In this document: one piece after another, positions 13 to 8,871 of the stretch | Position numbering within the stretch: the first letter of the stretch is position 1 | Layout of the letters: every line of letters starts with the position of its first letter | Source: a virus | Lineage: Duplodnaviria; Heunggongvirae; Uroviricota; Caudoviricetes | Virus record (IMG/VR): IMGVR_UViG_2660238358_000005 | Direction: 5' to 3' (one strand) | DNA: 8,871 nucleotides | The notes under the pieces: model-generated | What the model was told of the DNA's origin: nothing | Seen by the model: only the letters and a program-made list of their open reading frames with translations | The model's database searches: none | Translations under genes and position numbers: made by a program

Positions 13-414
13 TTAATTCGTGTACGTGATCTGGTACGTGATTTCCGCCATCGCCCAGGTGGCCATCTCATTATCACGTTGATAGTTAAAACCGAGTGGG
101 ATCATGGTGTCGATGAGTCCGGAAAGCACCGGAATATCCTTCATGGCCGGAAATATGGTGTTCTCCATCCACGTATCCAGCTCAGAATCCGGCGCCTGTG
201 CACGGACGAAAACGGCAATATGCAGAACAGCCTGCCAGTCGTCCTCATCCGTCATTTTTCCGGTGTACTGCGCATCACTCAGCCACACCGCCACGGCGGG
301 CAGTTCCTGCGCATCAATAAATGCCGGAAGCCCGTCAAAAAACGTGGCGCTGTCTCCACACTGTTCCCGAAGGCGTGCCAGCACGCTCTGACGGATTTGT
401 GTGTGTCGGTTCAT
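13..414 (-). CDS. U: Tail terminator protein gpU (lambda U homolog)
   Basis: 133-aa ORF aligns along its length with lambda gpU as I recall it (e.g. ATFFDG, FPAVAV, PDSELD.WME, LTY.ITY motifs). ATG at 414..412 overlaps the Z stop (ATGA overlap). Confidence 0.9.
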   Translation of the reverse strand: MNRHTQIRQSVLARLREQCGDSATFFDGLPAFIDAQELPAVAVWLSDAQYTGKMTDEDDWQAVLHIAVFVRAQAPDSELDTWMENTIFPAMKDIPVLSGLIDTMIPLGFNYQRDNEMATWAMAEITYQITYTN

Positions 415-3278: not shown

Positions 3279-4151
3279 TCATGGCATGGCCATGAGCATT
3301 TTCACGTCCGCATCACCGTCTGCTGACGTCTGTGGCACGCCACCCTGTACCGCTGCCGGTGAATGGTTCGCCATGAAATGTTCAAACATGGCGGGTGTGG
3401 GTGGAGGAAAACGGTNNNNNNNNNNNNNNNNNNNNNNNNNNNNNNNNNNNNNNNNNNNNNNNNNNNNNNNNNNNNNNNNNNNNNNNNNNNNNNNNNNNNN
3501 NNNNNGGGCATTCTCCACGGTCATCCCCGGACAGGCCGCCAGTTTTTCAGCCTGCGCCTCTGCCCCTTTTGCCTCATCCAGGGCCATAATCTGATCACGA
3601 AGTGAGGGTCCGGCATTCGCCTGCGGTGAAGCAGCCAGAATCGGACGGGCTTTTTCCACCGTCATCTCCGGCATCGCCGCCAGCGTTGCCGCCAGTTGTT
3701 CACGTCCTTTCGCCTCTTCACATGCCATAATGCGATCGGCTTCACTCTGCGCAGATACACCAGATTGTTGCGGTGCCGCCACGGCCAGAATCGCCCGGGC
3801 CTGCTCAACGCTCATACCCTGTTGCCCTGCCAGCATCGTGGCCAGTTGTTCACGTCCTTTCGCTTCCTGACACGTCAGGATCCCCATCACTCGCTGGTTC
3901 TCCTGCGCGGCAGCCTCCGTTGCAGTTAATTGCGGCATAGTGCCTCCTGTATCGTGTGTGTTCAGCGTCGCAGCCATCACGCTGATGGCGTCCGACGCAT
4001 TGATTAATTCATCCGCCAGTTCGGCCTCAATACCGGACTGACCTTCAAAAACGGCGGCCTCTGTTCCCATAACCGCATCCACAGATAAACCGGTATACAT
4101 CGCCACTTTTTCAGCAAACATCCGGCGCGCCGCATCAATGCGCTGCTGCAT
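3279..4151 (-). CDS. nu3: Putative nested scaffolding protein (lambda Nu3-like), in-frame internal start within C
   Basis: Inference from lambda, where Nu3 is translated in the C frame from an internal Met near the RIDA..RQMFAQKV region. Here in-frame Met codons occur at 4151..4149 and 4121..4119 in the homologous stretch (QDMQQRIDAARRMFAEKV). Neither has a strong Shine-Dalgarno, so the exact start is uncertain. Confidence 0.3.
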   Translation of the reverse strand: MQQRIDAARRMFAEKVAMYTGLSVDAVMGTEAAVFEGQSGIEAELADELINASDAISVMAATLNTHDTGGTMPQLTATEAAAQENQRVMGILTCQEAKGREQLATMLAGQQGMSVEQARAILAVAAPQQSGVSAQSEADRIMACEEAKGREQLAATLAAMPEMTVEKARPILAASPQANAGPSLRDQIMALDEAKGAEAQAEKLAACPGMTVENAXXXXXXXXXXXXXXXXXXXXXXXXXXXXXXXRFPPPTPAMFEHFMANHSPAAVQGGVPQTSADGDADVKMLMAMP

Positions 4152-4841
4152 GTCCTGGCGAACCTTTGCTGGCAGGGATTCAAACTGATTGCCATCCACC
4201 TTGTGCGATCCGGCGTAAATCAGCGTGATATCCACACCGGCCTGTGCCAGATGACCGGCATAGCTGACATGGCCCATCATCACCCCAATGGAGCCGATAC
4301 GGGATGTCTGGGTAACCAGCCGTCGGGAGCAGGCCGATGCCAGTAACATGGCGGCTGAACAGGCCGTGTCATTGCACAGTGCCCAGACAGGCTTCAGCTG
4401 CCGGAGACGGTAAATCATGTCAGCGCAGTCAAACGCGCCGGTGGCCTGCCCGCCAGAACTGTCAATGTCCAGCAGTACGCCCCGTACCTGAGTGTCCGCC
4501 ATTGCCTGCTGAAGACAGGCGACAATGCCGTCATAGCCAGTCATTCCGGAAAATGGCCGCATGCCACCCAGCCGGTGTACCAGCGTGCCGGTCACCGGCA
4601 GTACAGCAATACCGTTCACCACCCGGTAAACACGGGCAGGTCGTTTGCCTCCGGCCATGTACTCGTCCGTTTCAGCCAGCATCCCGGGAGCGTCAAGCTG
4701 TACCTGCTGTTGCGGTACCGAAAGGCTTGCTGCGCCCATCTCACGCCCGAGCGCGCAAAAGAAAACCCGCGCATAGGCGGGCTCCAGAAGCAGCGGCTCA
4801 TTGAATGCCGCAGCGATAATATGTGAAAGATTACGTCTCAC
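3279..4841 (-). CDS. C: Capsid assembly protease / minor capsid protein gpC (lambda C homolog, S49 peptidase-like); interrupted by an assembly gap so true length is unknown
   Basis: N-terminal two-thirds aligns with lambda gpC (AFNEPLLLEPAYARVFFCAL, NGIAVLPVTGTLV, SGMTGYDGI, GAFDCAD, KPVWAL, SRRLVTQTSRIGSIGVMM, ITLIYAGSHKVDGN, YTGLSV, TEAAVF, ADELINASDAI). Start is GTG at 4841..4839 with GAGGAG upstream, overlapping the end of B. The ORF runs through 90 N (3416..3505), so the C-terminal part and total length are unreliable. Confidence 0.85.
   Translation of the reverse strand: MRRNLSHIIAAAFNEPLLLEPAYARVFFCALGREMGAASLSVPQQQVQLDAPGMLAETDEYMAGGKRPARVYRVVNGIAVLPVTGTLVHRLGGMRPFSGMTGYDGIVACLQQAMADTQVRGVLLDIDSSGGQATGAFDCADMIYRLRQLKPVWALCNDTACSAAMLLASACSRRLVTQTSRIGSIGVMMGHVSYAGHLAQAGVDITLIYAGSHKVDGNQFESLPAKVRQDMQQRIDAARRMFAEKVAMYTGLSVDAVMGTEAAVFEGQSGIEAELADELINASDAISVMAATLNTHDTGGTMPQLTATEAAAQENQRVMGILTCQEAKGREQLATMLAGQQGMSVEQARAILAVAAPQQSGVSAQSEADRIMACEEAKGREQLAATLAAMPEMTVEKARPILAASPQANAGPSLRDQIMALDEAKGAEAQAEKLAACPGMTVENAXXXXXXXXXXXXXXXXXXXXXXXXXXXXXXXRFPPPTPAMFEHFMANHSPAAVQGGVPQTSADGDADVKMLMAMP
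3416..3505. other. Assembly gap: run of 90 N
   Basis: Directly visible in the sequence. It lies inside the C/Nu3 reading frame and abuts the tandem repeat region. Confidence 0.99.
3507..3890 (-). repeat. Tandem, diverged ~150-nt (50-aa) repeats, at least 3 copies, inside the C/Nu3 coding region
   Basis: Protein repeats IMGILTCQEAKGREQLATMLAGQQGMSVEQARAILAVAAPQ / IMACEEAKGREQLAATLAAMPEMTVEKARPILAASPQ / IMALDEAKGAEAQAEKLAACPGMTVENA...; at DNA level a 23-nt identical block occurs at 3691..3713 and 3841..3863, with related sequence about 150 nt earlier near 3538..3560. Confidence 0.8.
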
Positions 4842-6424
4842 GTGATGTTGTCTCCTCTTCCGGCCTGCGACTCTCCGCTATCTGCTGCTGATACGCCTGG
4901 GCTATCCACACCGGACGTGAGAGTCCGGCTTTTTCGCGCTCTGCGGATTCCCTGACCTGCTGGCGGAAAATGTCCTGATAATCTTCGCCCATCAGTGCCA
5001 GTTCTTTCTCATACGTGCTCAGTCCGGCCTCAATGCGCATCACCGATTCCTGGACCTCCTTGAGCCCGTCAATGGCCATTCTTCCGGAGCTAATCCACTC
5101 TGCCCGTGACCAGGCTGAACGCGCCTGGTAAAAATCAAAACGCGCCCGTGGCGGACGAATAATCCCCCGAAGAAGCGCCTCTTCCAGCCAGCAGGAAAAC
5201 ATCTGCGTGGCCAGCCGGGCCGCAATAAATTTTCGCCGCCCCATAAAATAGCGCCACGACTCATTGGCGGAGGCGCGGGCACTTGAGTAACTGACCTTCG
5301 AGTAATCACGGGACAACTGTTCGTAGGAAACGCCAAGACCGGCTGCAATATACCGCAGCAGCGCCTGTTCAAGCGCCGAAAATCCATTGTCTGAATCCTG
5401 CGCTGTCTGCAGGTTCAGCGCATCGCCAGGAAAAAAGGTGCGGAATTTTAACACCGCCCAGCGTCACGTTATTCGTGTCATACCAGCGGGTGAACTTCTC
5501 CAGAATATTAATAAGCGGATTATCCTGCTGACCTTGCGGTGCCCCCGCGATATATTCAAATGCCTTTTCGGTATCAAGTTCACTTTCGATTGTGGCTGCA
5601 TACATCGCCTTCACAATGGCCGACTGAAGCTGCGTGGCCTGCAGGGAGTCCAGCATCTTCATCCGCTCCATTACGCTGTAAAACTGATTAGCCCCACGGG
5701 TCTGCCCGTCCTCCACCGGCTCAAAAATATGCAGCATGGCCGGACGCCCGGTGGGAAGCTCACGCGGGATCCGCTCCCAGCGTCCGGCACCAGAGAACGG
5801 AAAATCATCCTCACAGATATGGTACGCAATCGCCCGCCCATACCGATCGACCTCAACCCCGGCCCGCAGAAAGTGGTTCCCCATACCGTGTCCTGGCGTG
5901 TCCACCCGTTTCGGACTCACGGCTTTAAAACGCGTACGGAATAACTGCGTGGTTTCCGTATCCCAGACCGGCTGCACAAAGATTTCGCCGTTAAAGGCAT
6001 GCACGCCCACCCCTTCACGGATAAATTCCGTAAACGTGCGTTTCCCTTCCACGTCGATCTCGCCAAACATTCCTTCTGCGTATTCCGACCAGGCTGCTTC
6101 CACCTCCCCGACAAAACTTTTTGCCGTGGTCTCCCGCATCCCCAGCCAACGCCAGTTCAGACGGTAGCTGATAAGAAACATGTGCCCGACGATATGATCC
6201 TTATGCAGGGCCACCGCATTAGCCGCGATACCGTTATTGCGCACCAGATCATCTGCCCGGGCATTCCCCAGACGCAATGCAGGCAACAGGGCCGCATCGG
6301 CACTCTGCGCCGGTGGTAACCACTCTGCCATTTGCCCGCCAAATCCTGCGCCGCCTCCGTTGTAGCTGAGACTCTCACGAAGCGGAACGCCGTTCACATC
6401 AATCAGGACAGGCGTTCGTTTCAT
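4831..6424 (-). pseudogene. B: Portal protein gpB (lambda B homolog), reading frame broken by a +1 frameshift in a homopolymer (pseudogene or sequencing error)
   Basis: The 351-aa ORF (6424..5369) matches the lambda gpB N-terminal two-thirds (GNARADDLVRNNG, KRTFT, REGV, HAFNGE, VSPKR, PVEDGQTRGAN.FYSVME.MKMLD.LQ.TQLQSAIVKAMYAATIESELDT) and the 207-aa ORF (5454..4831) matches the C-terminal third (PGDALNLQTAQDSDNG, LLRYIAAGLGVSYEQLSR, ARASANESW.YFMGRRKF, GRMAIDGLKEVQE, EAGLSTYEKE). The frames switch within the A6 run at 5431..5436; removing one base restores HLFPGDALNL, matching lambda HLMPGDSLNL. ATG at 6424..6422 overlaps the W stop. Confidence 0.85.
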
Positions 6425-6624
6425 AACCTCACTCCCAGCGGTCGGCGGCGTCGGGTCGTACCCAGAACCGACTCCGCATCGTTGATCGCACGGTTAAGCT
6501 CATTCAGGGACGCTGCCGTATATTCGATCCTGCGACCGTCTTTCTGTACCGACACAACCCGTTTACCGGTTAATAAATCAAGGCGCGCCTGACGCAGCGC
6601 CTGCAGTTCAGCGACTGTAACCAT
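6421..6624 (-). CDS. W: Head-tail joining / head completion protein gpW (lambda W homolog)
   Basis: 67-aa ORF; LLTGKRVVSVQKDGRRIEYTAASLNEL matches lambda gpW ([27 protein letters not shown]). ATG at 6624..6622 directly follows the A stop (TGAATG). Confidence 0.9.
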   Translation of the reverse strand: MVTVAELQALRQARLDLLTGKRVVSVQKDGRRIEYTAASLNELNRAINDAESVLGTTRRRRPLGVRL

Positions 6625-8535
6625 TCACTCCTCCGGACAGCTTCGCTGCCAGTTCTTCAAGGGTCGGTTGTGCAGTTGCATCCTTGCGGGATGCAACTGC
6701 ACAGCCAGATCAAGTTGCCAGCGTTGCACGGACACACGTAATGCCGCATAGGCATACACCAGGCAGTCCAGCGCTTCGTTACGCCGCTTTTTGTTATCCC
6801 ACAACAGACGCATCTTTCCTTTTTCCCACTTTTCCACCAGTTCCTCCGCCACCAGTTGTTGTGCCTCTGTCTGCGAAAAAATCTCCGGATTATCAGGAAA
6901 GCGGATGGCATACGATGTGGCCTCATTCACAGGGGTGGGATCGGCCTTCATTCGGGCATAGAGAATTTCTTTTGCGGTATCCGTCCCCACCTCACACAGA
7001 TACACACCCCGCTGATTGCGGGTTTTCGGCATGGTGATCACCGGCTTGCCATAGACAGAGGCACCTTTTACCGGCAGTACCCGGAAAATACCGTGTTTTT
7101 TTGACCTCTGATACACGATTTCGCCATCGATCCCCCCGATATCCCAGCAGACACGGGAAATGGTCATTTCGGTACCGTCTGCATGGCGGTATTTTTTATT
7201 GATCGCCGCATCCACACGTAACAGCGTCTCTTCCTCATCAGGACGTCCCATGATGATGATTTTATCCACCAGAAAGGCTTCCTCTCCCGGAGCCCACCCC
7301 CAGACATACATCTCAAAACGGTTTCGCTGCGAGTCAATGCCCGCCGTCAGATAAACCACCCGGACAGGCACCGTTGCCGTGTAAGGCACAACCTTATCCA
7401 TCAGTACCTGGTGATCGAGTTTTTCGCCCACGGCCTCTTCCCAGGTCTCGCCCAGCGTGGTGTTCACAAAAGTTTTCACGCCGTTGGGATCTTTCAGTGC
7501 ATCCAGCCAGTCACAGACTATCTGTACCCTGGTGGTGAACGGACTGTACGCCGTCCATATATGGAAAGTGATGGAGCGCGGCGGCGGAATTTCATTACCC
7601 GAAGCACTGAAAAACGTCAGACCGTCACACGTCCACATCCCGGTATTGTCACAAATCCAGCGCCCCCCGGTCTGATCAAGTTCAGACTGACGGATCACGC
7701 AGCCATTATGTTCACACAGGTAATACACCGTTTCCGGTTTACCCTTCTCCCATTTCAGGCCAAACGACGTCGCATCATCGCCAAACTTCAGATACTGCTC
7801 CTCCCCGCAATGAGGGCAAGGGACATAAAACCGCATGAAATGCGCAGATTCATTCGCAGCTTTTTCAATCTGACAGGAGCCTTTAATTTTTGGCGTTGAA
7901 CCGCGTATGGATTTTGGCCATACCGAACCTTCAATACGTTTATCGCCAAGCAGTGTTGGCGAACCTTCTTTTTCCACATCCGGTTCAAACGAGGAGAGTT
8001 CGTCATAGCAGACCACATCGACAGATTTTTCACGGTAGTTTTTGGCAGCAGCACCACCCAAACACCAGAACCCCACACCAGAGGAAAAACGCTTCAGTGT
8101 GAGCGTATTATCCCGGTGTTTCCGGCCCAGCCAGGGAGAAAGTTTTTTCAGGCAAGGAACATCACGAATTGTTGCTTCCACGTGAGACTTCATAAAATCT
8201 TCAGCAGCTGAGTCCGTCGGCTGAAAAAGAAGAGTGTTGCGGGATTTGTGCTCAATAAAATACCCGATCACACCAAGCACCATTTTTGTATAACCAACAC
8301 GGGCAGATTTAATCAGGTTAACTGTACGAATCTCGTCATTGCCCATGCAGTTCATGATGGCGACCTGAAACTGCAGCGTTTTCCATTCCCCCTCACCGTA
8401 TGACGATTCTTTAGGCAGGTAATAATTTTGATCGGCCCATTCTACAGCCGTCACCGGCAATACCCTGACCAGTGGCTGCAGTGCGATAGTGACTGCCACC
8501 ATCATATTACTCAGTTGTTGTTCTGATATATTCAT
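6625..8535 (-). CDS. A: Terminase large subunit gpA (lambda A homolog)
   Basis: Collinear homology over the full length with lambda gpA: TAVEWAD.NYYLPKES, VKSARVGY.KM.LGV..YFIEHK.RNTL, RDNTLT.KRF, GFWCLGG.AAKNYREKSVDV, GSPT.LGDKRIEGSVWPKSIRGSTPK, CPHCGEEQYLKFGD, HIWTAYSPFTT, TFVNTTLGETWE, YLTAGIDSQ, SKKHG.FRV.P.KGASVYGKPV, TEAQQL.AEE.VEKW, KKRRNEALDC. Start set at ATG 8535..8533 (MNISEQQ, as lambda MNISNSQ), not the TTG at 8592 used by the ORF track. Confidence 0.95.
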   Translation of the reverse strand: MNISEQQLSNMMVAVTIALQPLVRVLPVTAVEWADQNYYLPKESSYGEGEWKTLQFQVAIMNCMGNDEIRTVNLIKSARVGYTKMVLGVIGYFIEHKSRNTLLFQPTDSAAEDFMKSHVEATIRDVPCLKKLSPWLGRKHRDNTLTLKRFSSGVGFWCLGGAAAKNYREKSVDVVCYDELSSFEPDVEKEGSPTLLGDKRIEGSVWPKSIRGSTPKIKGSCQIEKAANESAHFMRFYVPCPHCGEEQYLKFGDDATSFGLKWEKGKPETVYYLCEHNGCVIRQSELDQTGGRWICDNTGMWTCDGLTFFSASGNEIPPPRSITFHIWTAYSPFTTRVQIVCDWLDALKDPNGVKTFVNTTLGETWEEAVGEKLDHQVLMDKVVPYTATVPVRVVYLTAGIDSQRNRFEMYVWGWAPGEEAFLVDKIIIMGRPDEEETLLRVDAAINKKYRHADGTEMTISRVCWDIGGIDGEIVYQRSKKHGIFRVLPVKGASVYGKPVITMPKTRNQRGVYLCEVGTDTAKEILYARMKADPTPVNEATSYAIRFPDNPEIFSQTEAQQLVAEELVEKWEKGKMRLLWDNKKRRNEALDCLVYAYAALRVSVQRWQLDLAVQLHPARMQLHNRPLKNWQRSCPEE

Positions 8536-8830
8536 CGAGTAAATCCGGTAATTTATCCCCCGCACGCGCGCACTGATTCGCTCCCTTAGCAATAAGGATT
8601 TTCAGATGATCAATATGACGCGGCGTTAAATCCGGGAACTGTCGTTGCATGGACAAAGGAATGGAGTCAAGCGTACTGGATAAAGCCATCGCCAGCTTAC
8701 TAAGGGCAAAAATACAAAATCCGGTATCGATAAGATTTCCTTTTGACACCTGATTTTTTAACTGCTGTGCGACAGCCTGTTCTGCGGTCAGTTCCCATCT
8801 GGCAATGAGTAGTTTGAGGTGTACTGGCAA
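8507..8830 (-). CDS. nu1: Terminase small subunit gpNu1, C-terminal portion only (roughly the last 100 residues by homology); 5' end unresolved and possibly disrupted
   Basis: GFCIFALSKLA...LDSIPLSMQRQFPDLTPRHIDHLK...LPDLLDEYI matches the lambda gpNu1 C-terminal region (AFCTFVLSRIA...LDGLPLSVQRRFPELENRHVDFLK...IPGLLSEYI). The 3' end overlaps the A start by 29 nt, as in lambda. The ORF-track start at 8830 is a TTG; an in-frame TAG lies at 8842..8840. Confidence 0.75.
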   Translation of the reverse strand: MPVHLKLLIARWELTAEQAVAQQLKNQVSKGNLIDTGFCIFALSKLAMALSSTLDSIPLSMQRQFPDLTPRHIDHLKILIAKGANQCARAGDKLPDLLDEYIRTTTE

Positions 8831-8871
8831 TAGCGGACACTACCATTTGTTCTTTTTTTAAGCAGCCATCT

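What the first reader, a model, noticed from the sequence alone, without database searches (positions are those of the whole stretch)
5421..5445. Portal gene B split by a frameshift inside an A6/T6 homopolymer
Lambda-type portal protein is a single polypeptide of roughly 530 aa. Here the homology continues without loss across two overlapping reading frames (6424..5369 and 5454..4831), and the switch maps to the run 5431..5436 (AAAAAA on plus, TTTTTT in the coding sense). Deleting one base gives ...IPHLFPGDALNL..., matching lambda ...VPHLMPGDSLNL.... Either this is a homopolymer-length sequencing error (plausible given the N gap elsewhere) or the portal gene is inactivated, which would make the prophage unable to form heads. 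A programmed frameshift is unlikely because no lambda-like portal is known to need one.
Basis: partly seen in the sequence, partly recalled or inferred. Interest (0 to 1): 0.5.

Follow-up and report, generated by a model that had tools for sequence, protein, structure and literature searches.

The report
Broken portal gene, defective Shigella prophage
The phage portal gene in this window really is broken by one extra T in a run of T's, and the same break is present in every Shigella flexneri genome examined here, so it is an ordinary, long-annotated pseudogene in a decaying prophage, not a sequencing error or a recoding signal.

Summary
A T6 run (coding strand, window 5436..5431) splits a lambda/phage-21-type portal gene into ORFs of 351 and 207 aa. 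Their Pfam matches abut at profile position 288. Deleting one T restores a 530-aa portal that is 1 residue from an intact E. coli prophage portal, 512/530 identical to phage 21 portal, and E=4e-213 to lambda gpB.

It is not a sequencing error. The window is 100% identical over 5,366 bases to Shigella flexneri 2a 2457T. The exact 351-aa truncated product is on record in 2,587 collection blocks (at least 1,000 contigs), including many finished S. flexneri genomes. All 15 S. flexneri loci fetched without requiring an intact portal carry T6.

The few S. flexneri assemblies with T5 also carry extra 1-nt deletions at other homopolymers of 6 or more bases. There the "repair" is the artefact.

The prophage is defective in other ways too. 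IS600 has replaced the Nu1 N-terminus and the DNA upstream of it. In this lineage the terminase large subunit C-terminus is frameshifted as well. No frameshift-stimulating features are present.

Verdict: a genuine, lineage-fixed pseudogene that is already in public annotation. Low interest.

The parts
5431..5436 (-). T6 homopolymer (A6 on the plus strand). It is a 1-nt insertion relative to the T5 of intact relatives and is the frameshift site.
   Evidence: The window and all S. flexneri loci L004-L015 and L026-L028 have T6. E. coli L001 and L002 have T5. L003 and phage 21 have T4.
5369..6424 (-). Portal pseudogene, N-terminal fragment ORF (351 aa). The last 20 codons after the T-run are out-of-frame read-through to a TGA stop.
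   Evidence: PF05136 profile 2-288, E=1.5e-67. One search shows it is annotated as 'head-tail preconnector gp5', AAN42336.1 and AAP16213.1.
4831..5454 (-). Portal pseudogene, C-terminal fragment ORF (207 aa from an upstream GTG). True portal homology resumes at about 5430.
   Evidence: PF05136 profile 288-354, E=1.9e-22. One search gives accessions AAN42337.2 and AAP16214.1.
6421..6624 (-). gpW-like head-tail joining gene, intact. It overlaps the portal start by 4 nt.
   Evidence: PF02831; synteny.
6625..8535 (-). Terminase large subunit (gpA-like), 636-aa form with an out-of-frame C-terminus.
   Evidence: (PF05876 and PF20454). The last 30 aa of the 642-aa form, LAASRKDATAQPTLEELAAKLSGGVNGYSR, are replaced by the 24 aa QLHPARMQLHNRPLKNWQRSCPEE.
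6695..6699 (-). Complex mutation (TGGCGG to AGTTG, net -1 nt) that frameshifts the TerL C-terminus. It is specific to the 2457T-like lineage.
   Evidence: It is absent from L007, L008, L011 and L013-L015 and from E. coli L001.
8507..8815 (-). Remnant of the terminase small subunit Nu1 (C-terminal part only, about residues 68-169).
   Evidence: homology to E. coli Nu1 starts 201 nt into the gene; PF07471 profile 85-163 of 164.
8816..8871 (-). Right end of an IS600 copy that replaces the Nu1 N-terminus and the upstream sequence. The window ends inside it.
   Evidence: window end = L012 3554-3609. Searches show the element annotated as an IS3-like IS600 family transposase.
3279..4841 (-). S49 prohead protease/scaffold gene (gpC-like), interrupted in this assembly by a 90-N scaffold gap. 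It overlaps the portal stop by 11 nt.
   Evidence: The gene is an intact 501 aa in finished S. flexneri genomes.

Best explanation
This is a genuine, inherited pseudogene. A single T was inserted in a T5 run (CAC CTT TTT CCT became CAC CTT TTT TCC T) of the portal gene of a phage-21/lambda-type prophage. The likely cause is replication slippage on the homopolymer (inferred). The insertion was already present in the common ancestor of the Shigella flexneri genomes sampled here. Translation now stops 20 codons after the run, giving a 351-aa product that lacks the C-terminal 199 residues (332-530) of the portal. A protein missing that part is not expected to form a working portal (inferred, not tested). 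The prophage is a decaying remnant with other lesions. IS600 has replaced the N-terminal part of the small terminase gene Nu1 and the DNA upstream of it, where cos lies in lambda-type phages (cos loss is inferred). Different S. flexneri lineages carry different further lesions in the large terminase gene. The window itself comes from a draft S. flexneri assembly whose contig runs from the IS600 copy to the start of the tail tube gene.
For: Identity of the window:
- It is 100.000% identical over 5,366 bases, including the T6, to S. flexneri 2457T AE014073.1.

Reality of the allele:
- The exact 351-aa product is indexed in 2,587 collection blocks. These include finished genomes AE014073.1, CM001474.1, CP007037.1, CP026765.1, CP026792.1 and LR213452.1.
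- It is seen on at least 1,000 contigs and deposited as AAN42336.1, AAP16213.1, ABF04804.1 and ADA73063.1.
- T6 is present in all 15 loci fetched by the truncated product, by the exact 44-mer, or by the unrelated gpU protein.

Ancestral state:
- E. coli prophages 99.8-99.9% identical over 1.8 kb have T5 and a 1,593-nt portal CDS.
- The repaired protein differs from that portal at one residue.
- Phage 21, a functional phage, has a single portal ORF that is 512/530 identical.
- None of 5,426 complete E. coli genomes has the T6 81-mer.

Apparent revertants are artefacts:
- The 530-aa S445 form occurs on only 20 contigs.
- The nine Logan loci fetched carry 18 further 1-nt deletions between them. 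Every one lies in one of the 10 homopolymers of 6 or more bases in the region.

Ongoing decay:
- Nu1 is truncated by IS600.
- The TerL C-terminus is frameshifted in this lineage.
- There are independent TerL indels in L004 and L010.
Against: - No reads were available for this particular assembly, so its own T6 is supported only by identity to other genomes.
- One finished S. flexneri genome (CP037996.1) shows T5. It has other indels nearby (a G insertion at L012 position 4149 and a 3-nt insertion in W). A true revertant there cannot be excluded.
- The other head genes (protease, decoration, major capsid, FI, FII, Z, U) remain intact in most genomes. This fits recent inactivation but would also fit some retained use.
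- No expression or protein data were examined.
Confidence: 0.93

Rival explanations
1. Homopolymer-length sequencing or assembly error: the true sequence has T5 and the portal gene is intact.
For: - The window is a draft scaffold with a 90-N gap.
- It has five discrepancies, including a 1-nt insertion, at 3395-3411 beside that gap.
- Homopolymers are classic error sites.
- A 530-aa form exists in 20 S. flexneri contigs.
Against: - T6 is present in every independently assembled S. flexneri locus fetched without requiring an intact portal (15 of 15).
- The exact truncated product is on at least 1,000 contigs in 2,587 blocks.
- From my own knowledge, the first S. flexneri genomes (Sf301 in 2002, 2457T in 2003) were finished by Sanger sequencing.
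- Outside the gap edge the window has no differences from 2457T over 5,366 bases.
- The T5 assemblies are the error-prone ones. Their extra deletions all fall in other homopolymers of 6 or more bases.
Confidence: 0.02
2. Recoding: a +1 ribosomal frameshift on CUU UUU UCC, or loss of one U by transcriptional slippage on the U6 run, restores some full-length portal, so the gene is still partly functional.
For: - A slippery U6 allows tRNA-Phe to re-pair one base downstream (read from the sequence).
- From my own knowledge, S. flexneri uses transcriptional slippage on longer A or T runs, as reported for mxiE and some mxi-spa genes.
- The frameshift has persisted without further damage to the 351-aa part in the genomes fetched. 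That set was selected on exact identity of the product, so this point is biased.
Against: - The site is not conserved as a frameshift. Lambda, phage 21 and thousands of E. coli prophages encode a single ORF with T4 or T5.
- There is no Shine-Dalgarno-like sequence upstream, and no stop or rare codon in the A site (UCC).
- The local fold is unremarkable, with z = -1.86 and 11 of 200 shuffles as stable.
- From my own knowledge, six bases is shorter than the runs that give efficient slippage.
- A restored portal would have little to do, because Nu1 is truncated and the sequence upstream of it is gone.
Confidence: 0.04
3. The truncated 351-aa portal fragment is kept because it is useful to the host, for example by poisoning portal ring assembly of superinfecting lambdoid phages.
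For: Only circumstantial. The allele is fixed in the sampled S. flexneri genomes, and the N-terminal ORF keeps its start, its translational coupling to W and its Pfam match.
Against: - Fixation is expected for any neutral lesion inherited from a recent common ancestor.
- Neighbouring genes are decaying in a lineage-specific, apparently neutral way.
- No test of expression or of phage resistance was possible here.
Confidence: 0.01

Closest known systems
Portal protein of Escherichia phage 21 (gene 4, 'head-tail preconnector'; OL657228.1, M81255.1)
   Same: DNA identity is 93.4-93.5% over the whole gene. Protein identity after removing one T is 512/530. The gene order is the same: TerL, W-like, portal, S49 protease/scaffold. 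The Shigella annotation name 'head-tail preconnector gp5' uses the same wording as the phage 21 record M81255.1.
   Different: Phage 21 has one 1,593-nt ORF with CAC CTT TTC CCT at the site. The window has CAC CTT TTT TCC T and two ORFs.
Bacteriophage lambda portal protein gpB (PDB 8k38 and related entries; Pfam PF05136)
   Same: Alignment is nearly full-length, E=4.4e-213, query residues 5-527 to gpB 7-530. The motif at the site is IPHLFPGDALNL against VPHLMPGDSLNL.
   Different: Lambda gpB is a single 533-aa chain. Here translation stops after residue 331 plus 20 out-of-frame codons.
Intact prophage portal of E. coli CFSAN029787 and relatives (WP_046880246.1)
   Same: DNA identity is 99.9% over 1.8 kb, with one amino-acid difference (S445G) after repair.
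   Different: These have T5 and a 530-aa CDS, and in L001 full-length Nu1 and TerL CDSs are annotated. The Shigella copy has T6, an IS600 in Nu1 and, in this lineage, a frameshifted TerL C-terminus.
Defective lambdoid prophages of E. coli K-12 (own knowledge, not tested here)
   Same: They are prophage remnants disabled by IS insertions, deletions and point lesions, and are inherited vertically.
   Different: This one still has an almost complete late operon, from the head genes to tail gene J, with only a few small lesions. That suggests more recent decay.

Membership tests
Lambda-family portal protein (Pfam PF05136 Phage_portal_2) | Significant match to the family profile above the curated cut-off | tested here: met
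   228.7 bits for the N fragment and 80.4 bits for the C fragment, against a cut-off of 32.9. E=4.4e-213 to lambda gpB.
Lambda-family portal protein (Pfam PF05136 Phage_portal_2) | Encoded as one continuous ORF of about 530 aa | tested here: not met
   there are two ORFs in different frames, switching at the T6 run. The sequence is therefore a pseudogene of this family, not a functional member.
Lambda-family portal protein (Pfam PF05136 Phage_portal_2) | Position in the head module between the gpW-like gene and the S49 protease/scaffold gene, downstream of terminase | tested here: met
Programmed frameshift or transcriptional slippage site | The frameshift arrangement is conserved in homologues from functional phages | tested here: not met
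   Lambda, phage 21 and E. coli prophages have a single ORF with T4 or T5 at the site. T6 was found only in the S. flexneri lineage.
Programmed frameshift or transcriptional slippage site | Known stimulators: an upstream Shine-Dalgarno-like element, a slow or stop codon in the A site, a flanking stable structure, or a run of about 8 or more A/T | tested here: not met
   the sequence GGTGTTAAAATTCCGCACC precedes the run, the A-site codon is UCC, and the run is 6 bases; fold z = -1.86, not exceptional. Actual frameshifting efficiency cannot be measured with these tools.
Sequencing or assembly artefact | The allele is confined to one assembly or to error-prone data sets | tested here: not met
   T6 is in all 15 independent loci and the product is on at least 1,000 contigs; it is the T5 state in S. 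flexneri that goes with homopolymer-deletion noise.
Defective (cryptic) prophage | Additional independent inactivating lesions in essential phage functions | tested here: met
   IS600 replaces the Nu1 N-terminus and the upstream region. The TerL C-terminus is frameshifted. Other TerL indels occur in other strains.
Defective (cryptic) prophage | No particle production on induction | not testable with these tools
   This needs mitomycin C or UV induction followed by electron microscopy or plaque assays.

The most novel reading that the evidence does not exclude
The frameshifted portal is not inert. Either a low level of +1 slippage on CUU UUU U yields some full-length portal, or the stable 351-aa N-terminal fragment acts as a dominant-negative subunit that interferes with head assembly of incoming lambda- or 21-type phages. 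Either would give S. flexneri a reason to keep this otherwise dead head module.
Probability: 0.03. Interest if true: 0.5.

Novelty: already known. Interest (0 to 1): 0.08.

Why it matters
It matters little beyond housekeeping. The result shows that this split portal is a real lineage marker of a defective phage-21-like prophage in S. flexneri. Annotation pipelines should therefore tag it as a pseudogene, not "fix" it or count the prophage as intact.

There is one practical lesson. At this site the error-prone data sets produce the intact-looking gene, because homopolymer under-calling turns T6 into T5. Prophage-completeness calls from such assemblies can therefore be falsely optimistic.

Tried and rejected
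- **Sequencing error.** Rejected after the exact-product look-up, the 44-mer scan and locus comparisons.
- **True revertants in S. flexneri.** The 530-aa S445 form exists. In the Logan assemblies it comes with other deletions confined to homopolymers of 6 or more bases, so it was judged artefactual. CP037996.1 remains ambiguous.
- **Programmed frameshift or slippage.** No conservation, no stimulators and an unremarkable fold (and the comparative calls).
- **Literature search.** The search for S. flexneri, cryptic prophage, portal and pseudogene and two papers read said nothing specific about this locus. I found no paper describing it. The evidence that it is already known is the deposited annotation.
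- **Conservation of the 351-aa fragment as evidence of selection.** Not pursued, because the loci were selected by exact identity of that product, which biases the test.
- **Cargo gene search.** I looked 10 kb downstream for a cargo gene that might explain retention, such as an ipaH effector. The stretch ends inside tail gene J, so the question is unanswered.

Full report
**Observation**

- Read on the minus strand, the region is ...GGC GGT GTT AAA ATT CCG CAC CTT TTT TCC TGG CGA TGC.... The six T's lie at window 5436..5431.
- The ORF list holds 6424..5369 (351 aa, ATG) and 5454..4831 (207 aa, GTG) on the minus strand in different frames.
- Both match Pfam PF05136, the lambda-family portal. 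The first covers profile positions 2-288 and the second 288-354 of 354. They are therefore the two halves of one gene, joined exactly at the homopolymer.
- Removing one T gives a 530-aa protein. It aligns with lambda gpB (PDB 8k38, 533 aa) over residues 5-527 at E=4.4e-213. The site reads IPHLFPGDALNL against VPHLMPGDSLNL in lambda.

**Where the window comes from**

- The reverse complement of window 8871..3506 (5,366 bases) is 100.000% identical to AE014073.1. The look-up lists that record under assembly GCA_000007405.1. From my own knowledge it is Shigella flexneri 2a strain 2457T.
- The remaining 3,415 bases are 99.85% identical to another S. flexneri assembly, WACK01000005.1.
- The high-coordinate end (8816-8871) is the right end of an IS600 copy. 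The low-coordinate end stops at the start of the tail tube gene.
- Most assemblies holding this gene have it on a contig of 5-10 kb (2,146 of 2,587 blocks). This fits short-read contigs that break at repeats.

**Error or real?**

- The exact 351-aa truncated product is indexed in 2,587 blocks of the assembly collection. These include many finished chromosomes (AE014073.1, CM001474.1, CP007037.1, CP026765.1, CP026792.1, LR213452.1 and others).
- The cluster look-up shows it on at least 1,000 contigs (the counter is capped). It carries deposited accessions from four S. flexneri genome projects: AAN42336.1 (named as strain 301), AAP16213.1, ABF04804.1 and ADA73063.1. They are annotated "head-tail preconnector gp5".
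- The 207-aa second half is deposited too, as AAN42337.2 and AAP16214.1.
- All 15 S. flexneri-type loci that I fetched without requiring an intact portal have T6. They were found by the truncated product, by an exact 44-mer, or by the unrelated gpU protein.
- None of 5,426 complete E. coli genomes carries the T6 81-mer. The five best have T5.
- The allele is therefore real, inherited, and confined to the S. flexneri lineage in the collections searched here.

**Ancestral state**

- Five E. coli prophages are 99.8-99.9% identical over 1.8 kb, for example CFSAN029787 and FDAARGOS_943. The two whose site sequence I read directly (L001, L002) have T5 and an annotated 1,593-nt portal CDS. In all five the match spans 1,800 bases against the 1,801-base query.
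- The repaired Shigella protein differs from that portal at a single residue, S445G.
- Phage 21 is a functional phage. Its gene is 93.5% identical in DNA and 512/530 identical in protein, and it reads CAC CTT TTC CCT at the site.
- The lesion is thus a +1 T insertion in a T5 run, the commonest kind of slippage mutation. Slippage as the cause is an inference.

**Apparent exceptions**

- The repaired 530-aa sequence with S445 does exist in the collection, as "phage portal protein [Shigella flexneri]" (QBQ21922.1), but on only about 20 contigs.
- Nine of the ten loci returned are Logan assemblies of SRA runs, eight from the SRR31555xxx series plus SRR16936277.
- Against 2457T they show almost no substitutions (1 each). 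Between them they carry 18 further single-base deletions.
- Every one of those deletions falls in one of the 10 homopolymers of 6 or more bases in the 8.7-kb region, at positions 3666, 4277, 4757, 5228, 5288, 5323, 5544 and 11168 of L012. They break TerL and FII.
- That is the signature of homopolymer under-calling. In these data the T5 is the artefact, and it spuriously repairs the gene.
- The tenth locus, finished genome CP037996.1, has T5 together with a G insertion in TerL and a 3-nt insertion in W. I cannot decide whether it is a revertant or an error.

**The prophage is defective in other ways**

- Homology to the E. coli prophage begins 201 nt into the small terminase gene Nu1. Everything upstream as far as the lysis gene is replaced by IS600.
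- The Nu1 remnant matches only profile positions 85-163 of 164. From general knowledge of lambda, the missing part is the DNA-binding domain, and cos lies just upstream. Loss of cos is inferred, not shown.
- In the window and in L006, L009, L010 and L012, a complex change at 6695-6699 (TGGCGG to AGTTG) shifts the frame of the last 30 codons of the large terminase. L007, L008, L011 and L013-L015 keep the 642-aa form.
- From my own knowledge, the C-terminus of lambda gpA is the prohead-binding end.
- Two strains (L004, L010) carry two further TerL indels.
- In some strains tail genes H, L or K are missing from the list of called genes. I did not check the sequences, so whether these genes are damaged is unknown.
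- The shared portal lesion and the shared IS600 junction, set against lineage-specific later lesions, are what neutral decay of a vertically inherited remnant looks like.

**Recoding**

- Restoring the frame needs a +1 ribosomal shift, or loss of one U in the mRNA.
- The run would let tRNA-Phe re-pair one base downstream. However, there is no Shine-Dalgarno-like element upstream, the A-site codon (UCC) is neither a stop nor rare, and the run has only six bases.
- The local RNA fold is unremarkable: z = -1.86, with 11 of 200 shuffles as stable.
- Above all, the arrangement is not conserved. Every functional relative examined has one ORF.
- Background-level slippage cannot be excluded without an experiment, but nothing suggests it is programmed.

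**Comparison with what is known, and novelty**

- The gene is a pseudogene of the lambda/phage-21 portal family. It meets the sequence and synteny criteria and fails the single-ORF criterion.
- The split has been in public annotation as two ORFs in the deposited S. flexneri genome records. From my own knowledge, these were the first finished S. flexneri genomes.
- My literature search found no paper discussing it specifically.
- It is already known and ordinary.
- One point is mildly useful. At this site noisy assemblies make the gene look intact, the reverse of the usual concern.

**Scores**

- Interest: 0.08.
- Novelty: already known.
- Confidence in the pseudogene explanation: 0.93.

Noticed in passing
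window 6695-6699 (TerL gene 6625-8535, minus strand): A complex mutation (TGGCGG to AGTTG, net -1 nt) frameshifts the last 30 codons of the large terminase, so its stop now abuts the gpW start. It is shared with 2457T-like genomes (L006, L009, L010, L012). It is absent from other S. flexneri genomes (L007, L008, L011, L013-L015) and from E. coli. It is a second, lineage-specific lesion in the packaging module.
   Followed up: yes
window 8507-8871: Only the C-terminal part of the small terminase Nu1 remains (Pfam profile 85-163 of 164). The N-terminal part and the DNA upstream are replaced by IS600, whose right end forms the last 56 bases of the window. The contig evidently breaks in this repeat.
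   Followed up: yes
window 3395-3505: The 90-N scaffold gap (3416-3505) stands in for only 34 bases of the S49 protease gene as found in finished genomes. The 17 bases beside it (3395-3411) hold 4 mismatches and a 1-nt insertion against all other S. flexneri loci. This is contig-end noise and the only likely sequencing errors in the window.
   Followed up: yes
window 61-298 (gpU gene 13-414): There are 22 substitutions against 2457T within about 240 bases but none against WACK01000005.1. The cluster suggests a recombination patch in the tail module. Exchange with another lambdoid prophage is a possible source that I did not test.
   Followed up: partly
L017-L025 (Logan assemblies SRR31555xxx and SRR16936277), compared with L012: These S. 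flexneri assemblies lose one base at many homopolymers of 6 or more bases. This breaks TerL and FII but makes the portal pseudogene look intact. It is a caution for prophage-completeness calls from such data.
   Followed up: yes
L004 and L010 (CP182556.1 and CP178302.1), TerL, corresponding to window 7938 and 7810: Two further single-base indels split TerL in these strains. CP178302.1 is labelled Escherichia coli. It has a 4.44-Mb chromosome, the T6 allele, and the same TerL indels as S. flexneri SFBU1023, so it looks like an S. flexneri-lineage genome.
   Followed up: partly
L016 (CP037996.1) 4149, 5971 and 6989 in L012 coordinates: This finished S. flexneri genome has T5 (an intact portal call) but also a G insertion in TerL and a 3-nt insertion in gpW. 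Whether it is a true revertant or an assembly error is unresolved.
   Followed up: partly
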